Shown: positions 1 to 49,788 of the stretch, in pieces
Position numbering within the stretch: the first letter of the stretch is position 1
How the letters are laid out: every line of letters begins with the position of its first letter
From: Escherichia phage LL5
Sequence record: NC_047985.1
Reading direction: 5' to 3' (one strand)
DNA length: 49,788 nucleotides
Made by a program: the position numbers and the translations under genes
The notes under the pieces: model-generated
The model's database searches: none
What the model was told of the DNA's origin: nothing
Seen by the model: the letters and a program-made list of their open reading frames with translations, nothing else

Positions 1-31
1 GGCGCAACGTTCCACAACACGTATAACAACA

Positions 32-50
32 AAATATCTATATAATACAT
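32..50 (+). repeat. 19-bp AT-rich motif AAATATCTATATAATACAT (copy 1)
   Basis: see copy at 28885-28903; contains TATAAT. Confidence 0.7.
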
Positions 51-302
51 TGAAAAGTAAGATAATTATTATTATATATCTATATTGTTATATAACTTGT
101 TTTGCTTGTTTCTCATGATATTGATACCCCTTTACTGATTGATAGAGTATAAAATTATAAGATAGGTGCTCTTATTTATTATTGGTGGCGGTGATTTTTA
201 ACGAAATGGTGTAACGATTTAGAACATCGTTGATTTAAAAGGATAAATTTTCAATTACCGTTACATTGCGTGATGTTTTTGTTGTCTAATCAAAAATAAC
301 AC

Positions 303-330
303 TTGACGCACAAGCCAGATTTGCTAAGGT
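303..330 (+). promoter_or_regulatory. sigma70-like promoter (TTGACG-16 nt-TAAGGT) upstream of first early gene
   Basis: -35 TTGACG at 303-308, -10 TAAGGT at 325-330, then SD GGAGG and ATG 365. Confidence 0.45.
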
Positions 331-3989: not shown

Positions 3990-4046
3990 TTGCTAAGGCA
4001 CATTTGATAAAGTGTGCCTTGTCGAGACAAGCAAGGAGAATGACAC

Positions 4047-5871: not shown

Positions 5872-5882
5872 GGAGAGTAAAC

Positions 5883-17574: not shown

Positions 17575-18087
17575 ATTATCTGTTGCGGCAAGAATGGCGC
17601 TGGCTCAAGAATACGAAAGCGAATATATGATCGCTTATGAAAACGTTGAATTTACTCCACCAAAAGGCGGAGGCATTTGGCTTAAATATGACTACAAAGA
17701 AGCAGATACAATAATTCATGATCTGAAAAGGAAATGCATTAGCTATATTGGAATGGTTCAGATCGGAATTGAATTCCCGCCAGGCTCAGGAATTGATAAG
17801 GCTCGCAAGCTGGCAAAAAATATTGCTGATTTCTTTGAAGATGGTAAAATGATCTGAAAAGGAAATGCATTAGCTATATTGGAATGGTTCAGATCGGAAT
17901 TGAATTCCCGCCAGGCTCAGGAATTGATAAGGCTCGCAAGCTGGCAAAAAATATTGCTGATTTCTTTGAAGATGGTAAAATGCTTGCGAATGGTTATATT
18001 TCAGAAGGTGCAAAAGTGCATCCAGTTCAGAAATCAGAATCAGGCTGGTTTTATCCAGTACGTTTTTATGTTCGTTATGATGGTTAA
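17564..18087 (+). pseudogene. tail terminator-like gene split by a perfect 131-bp tandem duplication
   Basis: ORFs 17564-17857 and 17884-18087 share MVQIGIEFPPGSGIDKARKLAKNIADFFEDGKM; removing one copy restores a 130-aa ORF. Confidence 0.6.
17718..17982 (+). repeat. perfect 131-bp direct tandem duplication (2 copies plus shared ATG)
   Basis: 17718-17848 identical to 17849-17979 by eye. Confidence 0.9.
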
Positions 18088-28762: not shown

Positions 28763-28884
28763 AAAGGAGGTAAATCAATGCCCTGGCTTAACGGTCGGGG
28801 CATTTTGTTTTCTTTTGTTCCACGATGTTCGCAACCGAATACGGCGTAAAATTGAAAACGTCTTGATAACAAAAAGAACAAATT

Positions 28885-28903
28885 AAATATCTATATAATA
28901 CAT
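28885..28903 (+). repeat. 19-bp AT-rich motif AAATATCTATATAATACAT (second copy at 32-50)
   Basis: identical 19-mer in both large noncoding regions, each followed by similar TAATTATTATTATATAT stretch. Confidence 0.7.
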
Positions 28904-29167
28904 ACACTTAGAGTTTAATTATTATTATATATATCTATTTGTATTATTATTGTTTCTATTGTTCTATATGGTTTGTGGTGGTTGTGTGTTTTGTATTGGT
29001 TGATGGTTATATATCACATGGTATGTATTTATATATGGTATGCGGCGCAAATGCGTGAACAATGGAACACAAAAACAACAATTAGTAAAATCATAAATTT
29101 ACGATGTGATTTTGTTGTCAATGCTAGTTGTAAACGTATGCAAAACAAAAAGAACACTTAAAGGGTA

Positions 29168-29195
29168 TTGACTACATGCAACAAAGACATATAAT
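29168..29195 (+). promoter_or_regulatory. strong sigma70-like promoter for exonuclease-Erf-SSB operon
   Basis: TTGACT-16 nt-TATAAT; about 28 nt upstream of SD/ATG 29224. Confidence 0.6.
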
Positions 29196-29223
29196 GCAGG
29201 CATACCAACGAGGGGATGACAAA

Positions 29224-36087: not shown

Positions 36088-36095
36088 ATTTTCAC

Positions 36096-36119
36096 CTATA
36101 GCACTTTTTGCTAAAAAAC
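36096..36119 (+). promoter_or_regulatory. conserved box copy 8 (TATAGCACTTTTTGCTAAAAAAC)
   Basis: in divergent intergenic region; 77 nt upstream of ATG 36176. Confidence 0.65.
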
Positions 36120-36175
36120 TTGATTAAGTTTGTGTATGATATTCCGCAAATGGCATTTAGTCAAAAGGATAAAAA

Positions 36176-43778: not shown

Positions 43779-45359
43779 TTACCCCATTAACGCCGGATTT
43801 ACATAAACAAATTTACCAACGCTGCAAACATAATTCTTTTCTTCAAGCATTGGCAATAATTGTTCCTCAATTCGTTTCATCACGCCTGATTGACCTGTAA
43901 ACGGCTTAACCTTACGCGCACTTTCATAGATAGCTCTTGCATTGGTAACTCCTTTATTTTGACGTGAGATCTTAATGATGATTTCAATTAACTTGCTCAT
44001 TTCGGCATCATCGCCAGCGTGACCTGAAGCATTCGCGGCGTTGATATATGTTTTGCTTAATTCGCTGAACATCACCAAAGCCTCTTGCATTGTCTCAACT
44101 TCAATTTCTCGAGACTTTTGCGGCGTACAGTTTGGATTAAACCAATTACGGATCGTGTGCAATACTGACGCAATGCGGATCACTTGCTTATCCATTTTAC
44201 CCAAAGCACCACGCAACATTGTATGTGAATATTTCCCGCCGTCTGCTAAATCTGGCTCTAATTGCTGGCGAGCAATATTAAGAACACGCATTGCAGAACG
44301 TGACGGCTTCAATACCACATTTTGTTCAGTCATAATGTTATGAATCAACTGGAAATATTGCGCCTTTAATTCTTTATCAACTGGCGTGTAATCAAGATCA
44401 CCATTTTCATCAATAAATACACGCTCGCCTAACATTGTTTTTTCACGTACAAGCAAGAAACGTTCACTAACACCAATACCCCGCGCCCCTGCATCCATGA
44501 TCCCTTTTATCGTTTCATCCTGGGCAATTACGCTCATGCAGCCCAACGCAACAAAACTCATATTGTTTTCAGAGGTGGCGCGAGCTATTGAAACGTGTCC
44601 TGCGTCCCATGCTTTTAGAACCAATTCACTGTTAGTCTTGCGATCACTATTAGCGTAAGTCAACCCTAGTAAGCTGTTGATGCTTGTTGCTTCATCGGAA
44701 ATGACAGCAAAGTTACCCTGGCGATTGTTAATCTTTGCTAACCCTTCCGGCGTGGTGTCTGATACCGGAAAAACGATATCGCACATTTTTTCTAACTTTT
44801 CCTCTAATTCCTCCTTTTCCTCAAACAACGCCGCTAACTCAGTGCCTGAACGTTCAGCTTTCAATTCCTTTTCAACGCCTTTTAATTTAGCCGCGATCTT
44901 CTTTCGCTCTTTCTTGCGTTGTTCGTTGATTCGCTCAACTTCACAGACCATTGGCGCAATAGCCAGGCTGTTGATTGCTGATTTACCAGTTGATGGCGGC
45001 TGACTGGTTACAACATAAAGCGCCGTTGGTTGTTCAGTGCCGTGGTACTCAACCTGGAAGCGTCCAACCATAGCTGCGGAAACGCAACCTATGAAATGCA
45101 TATAGGCCGATGATTCAGGAAATTGAACAGATTGCGCAATGCTGCGTGACAGTTTACCCACAACATCAACATCATTACCCAAAGAGATCACAGGATAACG
45201 GTCATTAGCTCCGTTGATATCCTTCACAGGTTCCCAAAAGCTGGACGATTGGCGGTAGCCGTTCGACTGAATAGCAACGCGAAGCGGCGATGTTCCCTGC
45301 GATTCTGCAATGGCTATAACTTGTTGAGGTGTCAATTTGTTGGTGTCAAAGTCAAACAT
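43779..45359 (-). CDS. P-loop NTPase (putative replicative helicase / DNA-dependent ATPase)
   Basis: Walker A QPPSTGKSA, Walker B FAVISDEAT; AGGAG SD. Confidence 0.55.
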   Translation of the reverse strand: MFDFDTNKLTPQQVIAIAESQGTSPLRVAIQSNGYRQSSSFWEPVKDINGANDRYPVISLGNDVDVVGKLSRSIAQSVQFPESSAYMHFIGCVSAAMVGRFQVEYHGTEQPTALYVVTSQPPSTGKSAINSLAIAPMVCEVERINEQRKKERKKIAAKLKGVEKELKAERSGTELAALFEEKEELEEKLEKMCDIVFPVSDTTPEGLAKINNRQGNFAVISDEATSINSLLGLTYANSDRKTNSELVLKAWDAGHVSIARATSENNMSFVALGCMSVIAQDETIKGIMDAGARGIGVSERFLLVREKTMLGERVFIDENGDLDYTPVDKELKAQYFQLIHNIMTEQNVVLKPSRSAMRVLNIARQQLEPDLADGGKYSHTMLRGALGKMDKQVIRIASVLHTIRNWFNPNCTPQKSREIEVETMQEALVMFSELSKTYINAANASGHAGDDAEMSKLIEIIIKISRQNKGVTNARAIYESARKVKPFTGQSGVMKRIEEQLLPMLEEKNYVCSVGKFVYVNPALMG

Positions 45360-49428: not shown

Positions 49429-49482
49429 TGTTTTATCTCCTGTTGTTTCGATGTGCTCAATGTAGCGCATTCGTGCTGATTG

Positions 49483-49504
49483 GTTTTAACAAAAAGTGCT
49501 ATTC
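49483..49504 (-). promoter_or_regulatory. conserved box copy 16 (- strand GAATAGCACTTTTTGTTAAAAC)
   Basis: outermost - strand copy, next to the large noncoding region; 73 nt upstream of ATG 49428. Confidence 0.65.
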
Positions 49505-49788
49505 ATGCGATAGACCGATTGGTCTATACCGTTTGGTATAATGAACGCATCGTTTTCTGTATCGAACGCATTCATGATCCTGTTACGTGATCGTTATATG
49601 ATCGGGTGATGATTGATGTGTGAGATTTTGTGATTGAAATTGATTTGATTTGATTAGATTTGAGTAGTGAGTGAGTAGAAATGATTGCACCTTGCCGATT
49701 GCGTGAAAACTTTCCTGCAAAACATCAATCCATGCTCCGCGCGTTTCGTTTTGTTCCTCGTTGTTTTTTGTCAGACCTTCCGCAGTTT

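What the first reader, a model, noticed from the sequence alone, without database searches (positions are those of the whole stretch)
28763..29223. Two large noncoding regions share a 19-bp AT-rich motif and GT-rich repeats
The 460-bp gap after the J-like gene and the region spanning the window ends (49505-49788 plus 1-364) both contain AAATATCTATATAATACAT followed by a similar TAATTATTATTATATAT stretch, and both have GT-rich, repeat-laden sequence (GATTTGATTTGATTAGATTTGAG near 49640; GTTTGTGGTGGTTGTGTGTTTTG near 28965). The window ends are not identical, so they are not a simple terminal repeat; the genome is probably circularly permuted and linearised arbitrarily. These regions are candidates for divergent early promoters, a packaging site, or a replication origin.
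Basis: seen in the sequence. Interest (0 to 1): 0.45.

Follow-up and report, generated by a model that had tools for sequence, protein, structure and literature searches.

The report
Duplicated AT-rich early-promoter module, T1-like phage
The two noncoding regions share a real, roughly 390-base control module that T1-like phages carry twice, each copy holding the genome's easiest-to-melt DNA just upstream of a host-type early promoter. It is probably a promoter-activating region, possibly also the family's unmapped replication origin, while the GATTT repeats belong to the nearby packaging site.

Summary
AAATATCTATATAATACAT (32-50; 28885-28903) and TAATTATTATTATATAT (63-79; 28916-28932) are exact, ordered repeats far beyond chance.

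The window is a Tlsvirus (T1-like) genome, probably phage LL5. Its ends are contiguous in relatives, so region B is one intergenic region of about 680 nt.

The shared motifs are the core of a module of about 390 nt found twice, in synteny, across Drexlerviridae. Its parts, in order:
- a T-rich GTTC arm;
- an A-rich box;
- the CTATATAATA core;
- TA-, T- and GT-rich tracts;
- an inverted GAACA arm;
- an IHF-type site (perfect in most lineages, one mismatch here);
- a second A-rich box;
- a near-consensus sigma-70 promoter (homologues of TLS P51 and P01).

The two cores are the least stable duplex DNA in the genome (z about 5).

Best reading (0.45): a host-factor-driven upstream activating region of the two main early promoters. 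Main rival (0.30): paired replication origins.

The GATTTGATTT array at 49640 is not the counterpart of the 28965 GT tract. It lies at the pac site mapped in TLS.

I found no description of the module in the searchable literature.

The parts
28777..28814 (+). Intrinsic terminator after the J-like tail gene (homologue of TLS T50). It forms the left border of module A.
   Evidence: 12-bp stem plus T tail; listed as T50 in TLS Table S1.
28803..28838 (+). Module A left arm: T-rich block with TGTTC boxes at 28816 and 28826, inverted relative to the right arm.
   Evidence: Inverted repeat I1, 28803-28820 against 29057-29074, 83% complementary. The block is conserved in all lineages, including those with no terminator here.
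28852..28884 (+). A-rich box 1 (AACAAAAAGAACA), first copy of a 29-nt internal direct repeat.
   Evidence: Direct repeat D3, 28852-28880 against 29128-29156, 83%; conserved column block.
28885..28932 (+). Shared core of module A: the 19-mer (containing TATAAT at 28894-28899), a 12-nt spacer and the 17-mer. This is one of the two least stable duplex stretches in the genome.
   Evidence: nearest-neighbour stability z=5.1-5.4; CTATATAATA is conserved in modules of several lineages.
28933..29040 (+). Tract that goes from T-rich to GT-rich and is C-poor, followed by a second TA-rich patch. The sequence varies between lineages but the composition is conserved.
   Evidence: Composition scan; alignment.
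29045..29082 (+). Module A right arm: GGCGCAAATGC-GTGAACA-ATGGAACA-CAAAAACAACAA, the inverted partner of the left arm. GTGAACA matches 7 of 8 bases of the P4 alpha iteron GGTGAACA.
   Evidence: GAACA/TGTTC is most clustered genome-wide here (7 in 400 nt, p=6.6e-5). P4 iterons read from the record.
29089..29101 (+). IHF-type site AATCATAAATTTA, one mismatch from WATCAANNNNTTR.
   Evidence: It aligns with perfect consensus sites fixed at -132/-140 from the recE ATG in 23 of 43 related loci, against a background of 0.07 per kb.
29128..29156 (+). A-rich box 2, the second copy of the 29-nt repeat. It sits at about -61 to -45 of the promoter, which is the position of an UP element.
   Evidence: position computed.
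29168..29195 (+). Near-consensus sigma-70 promoter TTGACT-16-TATAAT driving recE-recT-ssb (homologue of TLS P51).
   Evidence: 11 of 12 matches; present in 42 of 43 related loci; TLS Table S1.
49484..49504 (-). 21-nt family repeat (GAATAGCACTTTTTGTTAAAA on the - strand), the upstream element of the leftward promoter for the 49470 gene.
   Evidence: DR18 in TLS.
49511..49542 (+). Two palindromes (TAGACCGATTGGTCTA and TACCGTTTGGTA) overlapping an extended -10 (TGGTATAAT, 49534-49542) that points rightwards.
   Evidence: Sequence; regex scan. No function was tested.
49575..49667 (+). pac-region array: 10 TGAT motifs and 3 GATC sites, including the TTGAT x4.8 pentamer array at 49640-49667. TLS position 1 (the mapped pac cut) corresponds to window about 49623.
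   Evidence: Densest TGAT cluster in the genome: 11 in the best 110-nt window (the eleventh lies at 49682, just outside this part), against a mean of about 1. TRF. TLS start sequence. TLS HindIII site at 5876 fits the published pac-HindIII distance of about 5,882 bp. 94% identity to TLS across 49469-49724.
49740..49788 (+). Module B, left end: T-rich GTTC block (counterpart of 28803-28838), running to the window end.
   Evidence: Alignments; contiguity across the junction.
1..31 (+). Module B, continued: GTTCCA box and an A-rich stretch before the core.
32..79 (+). Shared core of module B: 19-mer, 12-nt spacer and 17-mer. This is the other least stable duplex stretch in the genome.
   Evidence: z=5.0-5.3.
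80..302 (+). Module B T-rich and variable tract, right-hand boxes (GTAAC at 211, GAACA at 222, GTTAC at 260) and the A-rich CAAAAATAACAC box.
303..330 (+). Sigma-70-like promoter TTGACG-16-TAAGGT preceded by TGn (positional homologue of TLS P01), upstream of the first rightward gene (ATG at 365).
   Evidence: TLS P01.

Best explanation
The 19-mer and 17-mer are the core of a conserved noncoding module of about 390 nt that T1-like phages (Drexlerviridae) carry twice. Module A is about 28803-29195, upstream of recE-recT-ssb. Module B is about 49740-49788 plus 1-330, upstream of the first rightward early gene.

Each module ends, on its right, in one of the few promoters that unmodified host RNA polymerase should recognise. 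The most likely function is an upstream activating region for these early promoters that works with host factors only. The proposed parts are:
- A-rich boxes at the UP-element position;
- an IHF-type bend about 100 nt upstream of the start site;
- further upstream, the most easily melted DNA in the genome, which would take up negative supercoiling and hand it to the promoter when IHF binds. This is the mechanism described for E. coli ilvPG (cited from my own knowledge).

Shown: the homology, the architecture, the family-wide conservation, the promoter association and the duplex instability.

Inferred: IHF binding, transmission of supercoil destabilisation, early timing, and any effect on promoter strength.

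The GATTTGATTT array at 49640 is a separate element belonging to the pac region.
For: - Exact shared motifs in the same order and an extended alignment.
- The same ordered blocks appear in A and B modules of TLS, T1 and at least five other lineages.
- A sigma-70 promoter with a 16-18 nt spacer (16 nt in 41 of the 42) sits at the right end of module A in 42 of 43 loci, and TTGAC(G/A/T)-16/17 promoters sit in B modules. These are P51 and P01, two of only three sigma-70 promoters the TLS authors accept.
- Perfect IHF consensus is fixed at -132/-140 from the recE ATG in 23 of 43 loci and at -311 to -344 in 16, with the N positions varying; background is 0.07 per kb.
- A-rich box 2 lies at about -61 to -45 of the promoter.
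- The cores are the two global minima of duplex stability.
- The whole module is as conserved among Tlsviruses as the recE coding sequence.
- Relative to TLS, module B was exchanged together with its promoter and first genes, while the flanking pac region stayed 94% identical. That fits a cis element that needs only host factors.
Against: - The third sigma-70 promoter (the P57 homologue) has no such module.
- The best-conserved element (CTATATAATA plus the TA-rich tract) lies 270-310 nt upstream of the start site, beyond the usual reach of UP, Fis or IHF activation.
- In this window the IHF sites have one mismatch, and such near-matches are not enriched (2 per kb genome-wide).
- A crude wedge-model curvature calculation shows no outstanding bend (z -1.6 and -1.8).
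- No transcript or protein-binding data exist.
Confidence: 0.45

Rival explanations
1. Paired replication origins. The TA-rich core is a DNA-unwinding element, flanked by inverted short protein-binding boxes and IHF sites. It would be opened with help from negative supercoiling behind the strong outward-reading early promoter, or primed by a transcript from the conserved TATAAT. Two copies per genome would parallel SPP1 oriL/oriR or P4 ori/crr. This is not exclusive of the promoter-control role.
For: - The two global minima of duplex stability lie here.
- Inverted arms of about 18-27 nt flank about 215 nt of AT-rich DNA.
- The boxes are lineage-specific and most clustered at the modules: GAACA in the window's module A and in both TLS modules, GTAAC/GTTAC in T1 module A (p=7e-6). 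Other lineages use GTAATC or GATAACA.
- GTGAACA matches 7 of 8 bases of the P4 iteron GGTGAACA, which occurs in both ori and crr.
- The phage primase is homologous to the primase domain of P4 alpha (E=9e-14).
- The TLS authors looked for an origin and found none.
- All 400 nt are under constraint.
- SPP1 is a precedent for two origins (abstract of PMC3485210).
Against: - Within this window the boxes differ between A and B: A has seven GAACA/TGTTC boxes, while B has two plus GTAAC/GTTAC boxes.
- Module B was swapped between close relatives, which is awkward for a lineage-specific initiator.
- Box enrichment is absent for module B in the window and in T1.
- There are no DnaA boxes.
- No homologue of the P4 alpha origin-binding domain was found by BLASTP or tblastn.
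- GC skew follows gene orientation only.
Confidence: 0.3
2. The conserved TATAAT in the 19-mer is the -10 of an additional promoter that lacks a -35 and depends on an activator or on supercoiling. It would give a long leader or a noncoding transcript through the module.
For: - A perfect TATAAT is conserved in A and B modules of many lineages.
- It sits in the most meltable DNA.
- A GAACA box lies at about -30, where an activator could replace the -35.
Against: - No -35 exists at 16-18 nt in any lineage (inspection).
- There is no terminator and no RNA structure signal: z = -0.05 on the + strand and -1.54 on the - strand.
- Rfam gives nothing.
- Some lineages have TATATA or CTATAAAC instead.
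Confidence: 0.1
3. The shared module is itself the packaging (pac) recognition site.
For: Module B lies within about 120-400 nt of the pac position mapped for TLS and T1. IHF sites are also typical of pac and cos sites.
Against: - Module A, 21 kb away, has the same structure.
- In TLS, submolar restriction fragments gave a single pac location; a single pac series in T1 is from my own knowledge of the older T1 literature.
- The mapped cut falls in the TGAT/GATC array, to the left of module B.
- Module B was replaced between LL5-type and TLS-type genomes while the pac array was kept.
Confidence: 0.03
4. The similarity is chance low-complexity AT-rich sequence, or a recent gene-conversion patch with no function.
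For: Both regions are AT-rich. The exact identity is limited to 19 plus 17 nt. TLS module B has a different version of the 19-mer.
Against: - 0 of 100 shuffles give two copies.
- The ordered blocks are conserved across lineages whose RecE is only 63% identical.
- A-B identity within a genome (0.58) is no higher than between genomes (0.57), so recent conversion is not the explanation.
- Purifying selection equals that on coding DNA.
Confidence: 0.02

Closest known systems
E. coli ilvPG upstream activating sequence (IHF plus supercoil-destabilised AT-rich DNA); also lambda pL and Mu Pe, which have upstream IHF sites. Cited from my own knowledge.
   Same: An AT-rich, easily melted region and an IHF-type site lie upstream of a sigma-70 promoter. 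Only host factors are needed.
   Different: The module is much longer (about 330 nt upstream), duplicated and conserved family-wide. The melt-prone core is about 300 nt from the start site. The IHF site in this window is imperfect. No SIDD calculation or expression data are available.
Satellite phage P4 ori and crr (type 1 iterons TGTTCACC bound by the alpha primase-helicase)
   Same: Two separated AT-rich noncoding loci carry the same short boxes in both orientations. GTGAACA matches 7 of 8 iteron bases. The phage primase is homologous to the alpha primase domain.
   Different: No homologue of the alpha origin-binding domain was detected. There are fewer boxes, they are less regular, and they are not the same in A and B of this window. 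The helicase is a separate MCM-like protein.
Bacillus phage SPP1 oriL/oriR
   Same: A pac-type siphovirus with RecT-type recombination that has two distant origins made of repeated boxes plus an AT-rich region (abstract of PMC3485210; details from my own knowledge).
   Different: The replication proteins are unrelated. SPP1 oriL lies inside a gene. No binding data exist here.
T4 oriF/oriG and the T7 primary origin (promoter followed by an AT-rich unwinding element). Cited from my own knowledge.
   Same: A conserved -10 is followed directly by about 50-100 nt of TA-rich DNA and then a G-rich non-template strand.
   Different: The host polymerase is used. There is no -35 and no known activator. 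No R-loop or priming evidence exists.
P1 pac (TGATCA/G hexamer arrays with Dam sites flanking an IHF site) and the TLS/T1 pac. This comparison concerns only 49575-49667.
   Same: A dense array of TGATC/TGATG/TGATT motifs with three GATC sites surrounds the position mapped as pac in TLS, and the phage encodes a Dam methylase.
   Different: The P1 resemblance is recalled from memory, not tested. The TLS authors relate their site to P22 pac (AGATTT). No terminus data exist for this genome.

Membership tests
Sigma-70 early promoter with upstream activating region (UP/IHF/SIDD type) | Near-consensus -35 and -10 with a 16-18 nt spacer at the gene-proximal end | tested here: met
   TTGACT-16-TATAAT at 29168-29195; present in 42 of 43 relatives; TTGACG-16-TAAGGT with TGn at 303-330.
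Sigma-70 early promoter with upstream activating region (UP/IHF/SIDD type) | IHF consensus site at a fixed upstream position | tested here: inconclusive
   Perfect and position-fixed in 23 of 43 related loci. In this window it has one mismatch (29089-29101), and near-matches are not enriched.
Sigma-70 early promoter with upstream activating region (UP/IHF/SIDD type) | Upstream duplex-destabilised AT-rich region | tested here: met
   The two global minima of nearest-neighbour stability, z about 5 against 3.2 for the next. A true SIDD calculation was not run.
Sigma-70 early promoter with upstream activating region (UP/IHF/SIDD type) | Promoter activity depends on the upstream region and on IHF | not testable with these tools
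   Needs reporter fusions or transcript mapping in wild-type and ihf hosts.
Iteron-type phage or plasmid origin (P4 ori/crr, SPP1 oriL/R, lambda ori) | AT-rich unwinding element next to the repeats | tested here: met
Iteron-type phage or plasmid origin (P4 ori/crr, SPP1 oriL/R, lambda ori) | Several copies of one initiator-binding box, the same at every origin copy | tested here: inconclusive
   Module A has seven GAACA/TGTTC boxes, the top cluster in the genome (p=6.6e-5). Module B of this window has only two, plus GTAAC/GTTAC boxes. Both TLS modules are enriched.
Iteron-type phage or plasmid origin (P4 ori/crr, SPP1 oriL/R, lambda ori) | A cognate origin-binding initiator is encoded | tested here: inconclusive
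   No homologue of the P4 alpha origin-binding domain. An MCM-like ATPase with a C-terminal winged helix is present and an HTH protein lies next to it. DNA specificity is unknown.
Iteron-type phage or plasmid origin (P4 ori/crr, SPP1 oriL/R, lambda ori) | Replication starts there | not testable with these tools
   Needs marker-frequency analysis, 2D gels or nascent-strand mapping.
Host DnaA-dependent origin | DnaA boxes TTWTNCACA | tested here: not met
   None in either region; 6 genome-wide.
pac site of headful-packaging phages | Coincides with the mapped first packaging cut of a close relative | tested here: met
   This applies only to 49575-49667. TLS position 1 corresponds to window about 49623, within a block 94% identical to TLS. 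The TLS HindIII site at 5876 fits the published 5,882 bp. It is not met for the shared 19-mer modules.
pac site of headful-packaging phages | Physical termini of this phage at that position | not testable with these tools
   No reads are available; PhageTerm would be needed.
Direct terminal repeat | Identical sequence at both ends of the record | tested here: not met
   No end-to-end repeat. The end-to-start junction is colinear in a relative.
Structured noncoding RNA | Match to a known family, or folding energy beyond shuffles | tested here: not met
   Rfam gives 0 hits in the whole window. Folding z-scores are -0.05 and -1.54.

The most novel reading that the evidence does not exclude
The two modules are the so far unmapped replication origins of the T1 family. 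Each would be a pair of transcription- and supercoil-activated unwinding elements whose inverted GAACA-type boxes (P4-iteron-like) are recognised through the winged-helix domain of the phage's MCM-like helicase or a partner protein. Each origin would be physically coupled to an early promoter, and one of them would sit next to pac.
Probability: 0.3. Interest if true: 0.6.

Novelty: new member of a known kind. Interest (0 to 1): 0.4.

Why it matters
T1 is one of the seven classical T phages, and Drexlerviridae are common in therapy collections and as laboratory contaminants. Even so, their origin of replication and early transcription control are unknown. The 2024 TLS re-annotation searched for an origin without success and accepted only three host-type promoters.

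A noncoding module of about 390 nt, conserved across the family, duplicated, and attached to two of those three promoters, gives concrete targets. The cores at 28885-28932 and 32-79 and the arms at 28803-28838 and 29045-29082 can be used for deletion, reporter and origin-mapping experiments. They also mark regions to leave intact when engineering these phages.

The analysis also separates the pac-region repeats from the shared module. This matters for choosing genome start coordinates.

Tried and rejected
- Rfam scan of the whole window: no hit.
- RNA folding of the module on both strands: no better than shuffles, so a structured RNA was dropped.
- DnaA boxes: none.
- IHF consensus in the window itself: only one-mismatch sites, at the background rate. 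The IHF argument rests on relatives.
- Wedge-model curvature, with parameters recalled from memory and so approximate: the modules are not outstanding. Only the pac-side stretch at 49506 reaches z -3.7. I treat this as inconclusive.
- Concerted evolution or gene conversion between A and B: rejected, identity 0.58 within genomes against 0.57 between.
- GC skew as an origin marker: it follows gene orientation only.
- P4 alpha origin-binding domain in the window: not found. PDB sequence search with the DUF3987 protein: nothing.
- Comparing the regulator, HTH and helicase proteins between T1 and the window to see which tracks the box change: all are 54-59% identical, so uninformative.
- Literature: no paper in the searchable library describes these regions, T1-family start sites or a T1 origin. 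The 2004 T1 genome paper is not held, so prior description there cannot be excluded.
- The simple promoter scan found no promoter at the 19-mer on either strand.

Full report
**Identity and context**

The window is a complete genome of a T1-like siphovirus in the genus Tlsvirus (Drexlerviridae). Regions A and B are 93-96% identical to TLS, Stevie, CF1 and related phages. The helicase-like protein at 43779-45359 is 100% identical to a protein named from Escherichia phage LL5, whose contig is also 49,788 bp long.

The end and start of the window join colinearly in a relative: 1252 nt at 92% identity across the junction. 'Region B' is therefore one intergenic region of about 680 nt (49471-49788 plus 1-364) between divergent genes. 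Region A (28763-29223) lies between the J-like tail gene and recE. The real recE start is 29224, as in TLS and Stevie.

**Observation**

- The 19-mer is exact at 32-50 and 28885-28903, with no other copy at up to 3 mismatches (0.02 expected).
- The 17-mer is exact at 63-79 and 28916-28932, 12 nt downstream of the 19-mer in both regions.
- ATATCTAT occurs twice in each region, 42-44 nt apart, and nowhere else.
- The two regions are the lowest-GC bins of the genome (0.29 and 0.32).
- The GT-rich stretches are real, but they occupy different places relative to the shared motifs.

**What the shared motifs belong to**

Aligning A with B, and then with the corresponding regions of TLS, T1 and five further lineages (RecE 63-83% identical), shows one ordered architecture present twice per genome in conserved synteny. 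In module A of the window the blocks are:

1. A T-rich arm with TGTTC boxes (28803-28838).
2. GGCGTAAA and an A-rich box AACAAAAAGAACA (28852-28884).
3. The core CTATATAATA inside the 19-mer, then the TA-rich 17-mer.
4. T-rich, then GT-rich, C-poor DNA. Its sequence varies between lineages but its composition is kept (28933-29040).
5. GGCGCAAAT-GTGAACA-ATGGAACA-CAAAAACAACAA (29045-29082), the inverted partner of block 1 (83% complementary).
6. AAAATCAnnnnnTTA (29089-29101).
7. A second copy of the A-rich box, part of a 29-nt internal direct repeat at 83% (28852-28880 against 29128-29156).
8. TTGACT-16-TATAAT (29168-29195).

Module B is built the same way (49740-49788 plus 1-330) and ends in TTGACG-16-TAAGGT with an extended -10 TG.

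Among Tlsviruses the 400 nt of module A vary no more than the recE coding sequence: 6-13 variable columns per 50, against 27 of 46 in the end of the J gene. A and B are no more alike within a genome than between genomes (0.58 against 0.57). They are therefore old copies held similar by function rather than by recent conversion.

**Promoters**

The 2024 TLS paper (PMC11447400) accepts only three sigma-70 promoters: P01, P51 and P57. Its Table S1 places T50 and P51 at the two borders of what I call module A, and P01 at the right end of module B. It does not discuss the 350 nt in between.

The P51-type promoter is present in 42 of 43 related loci. The shared 19-mer contains a perfect TATAAT, but no -35 lies 16-18 nt upstream in any lineage.

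**Physical and host-factor features**

- The two cores are the least stable duplex stretches of the whole genome at 60, 100 and 200 nt scales. Their z-scores are 4.8-5.4; the next best is 3.2-3.5.
- Perfect IHF core consensus (WATCAANNNNTTR) occurs at a fixed -132/-140 from the recE ATG in 23 of 43 loci. The consensus positions are kept while the N positions vary. It also occurs just after the TATAAT core (-311 to -344) in 16 loci. Background in adjacent coding DNA is 0.07 per kb. Several B modules also have the central site.
- In this window the corresponding site has one mismatch, and near-matches are not enriched.
- There are no DnaA boxes, no Rfam hit, no RNA-structure signal, and no outstanding curvature in a crude model.

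**Short boxes**

- GAACA/TGTTC is most clustered genome-wide at module A of the window (7 in 400 nt, p=6.6e-5) and at both TLS modules.
- In T1 the equivalent boxes are GTAAC/GTTAC (8 in module A, p=7e-6), and GAACA is not enriched there.
- Other lineages use GTAATC or GATAACA.
- GTGAACA equals 7 of 8 bases of the P4 alpha iteron GGTGAACA. I confirmed from the P4 record that this iteron occurs in both ori and crr.
- The phage primase is homologous to the alpha primase domain (E=9e-14).
- No alpha-type origin-binding domain is detectable.
- The boxes of module B in this window differ from those of module A.
- Relative to TLS, module B and the first two genes have been replaced as a unit, while the pac side stays 94% identical.

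**pac**

TLS position 1 is AGATTTTGTGATTGAAATTGATTTGATTTGATTAGATTTGAG, which corresponds to window about 49623. The TLS authors opened their sequence at the restriction-mapped pac, about 5,882 bp from a HindIII site. The TLS HindIII site is at 5876. The T1 record likewise opens inside its region B, with a 2.8-kb terminal-redundancy feature.

That repeat therefore belongs to the packaging region, about 100 nt to the left of module B, and has no counterpart in region A.

**Interpretation**

What is shown is a duplicated, family-conserved, strongly constrained noncoding module. Its right end is a host-type promoter and its centre is the most meltable DNA of the genome.

I rate an upstream activating region for the two main early promoters as most likely (0.45). 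The reasons are the invariant promoter association, the UP-position A-box, the position-fixed IHF site, and the fact that the module travels with its promoter and genes.

Paired replication origins are the main rival (0.30) and could coexist with that role. In their favour are the unwinding-element character, the inverted lineage-specific boxes, the P4-like iteron and primase, an MCM-like helicase with a winged helix, and the lack of any known origin. Against them are the unequal boxes in A and B and the cassette exchange.

A separate -35-less promoter at the 19-mer (0.10), the module acting as pac (0.03) and chance (0.02) are minor possibilities.

**Novelty**

Nothing in the searchable literature describes these modules. 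The 2004 T1 genome paper could not be read. In kind, this is an AT-rich promoter/origin-type control region, so I file it as a new member of a known kind, of moderate interest.

Noticed in passing
window 1340, 1752, 2380, 3970, 5045, 6350, 30280, 36098, 38556, 39880 (+); 35495, 45430, 46321, 48475, 49153, 49502 (-): The 21-nt family repeat aaATAGCACnnnTTGnTAAAA has an unknown function; the TLS paper lists this as an open question. It is a palindrome (TAGCA-N5-TGCTA). In 16 of the 18 matches found in the window (all 16 coordinates listed here), a -10-like hexamer (TAnnnT or CATAAT, often with TGn) follows 18-19 nt after its end (exactly 19 nt in 14). That puts the palindrome centre at about -42, the geometry of a class II activator-dependent promoter. 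In several copies (for example 3996-4020) the -10 is enclosed by covarying hairpin arms.
   Followed up: partly
window 17718-17979: A perfect 131-bp tandem duplication truncates the gp41-type tail gene at codon 97. Removing one copy restores a 130-aa protein almost identical to TLS gp41, and TLS has a single copy. This is probably an assembly artefact or a defective variant.
   Followed up: yes
[not shown]
   Followed up: partly
window 49575-49667: The pac region is an array of TGATC, TGATG and TGATT motifs with three Dam (GATC) sites on one side of the cut mapped in TLS and TGATT repeats on the other. From memory this resembles the P1 pac hexamer arrays. The TLS paper relates the site only to P22 AGATTT.
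   Followed up: partly
window 49725-49788 plus 1-1105, compared with TLS 103-1287: This is a mosaic replacement. Module B and the first two rightward genes are not alignable with TLS, although the flanks are 94-96% identical. Only 25 phage records share this version of region B, whereas 51 share region A.
   Followed up: partly
window 49511-49542: Two adjacent palindromes (TAGACCGATTGGTCTA and TACCGTTTGGTA) overlap a rightward extended -10 (TGGTATAAT). T1 and another lineage have ATTCCA/TGGAAT inverted repeats at the same place. This could be an operator or a terminase-binding site next to pac.
   Followed up: no
window 36088-36175: The third host-type promoter (the TLS P57 homologue, TTGACTAAATGCC..., on the - strand) shares its -35 context (TTGACTAAAyGC) with the P51-type promoters of other lineages. 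It overlaps the 21-nt repeat that serves the helicase gene on the other strand.
   Followed up: no
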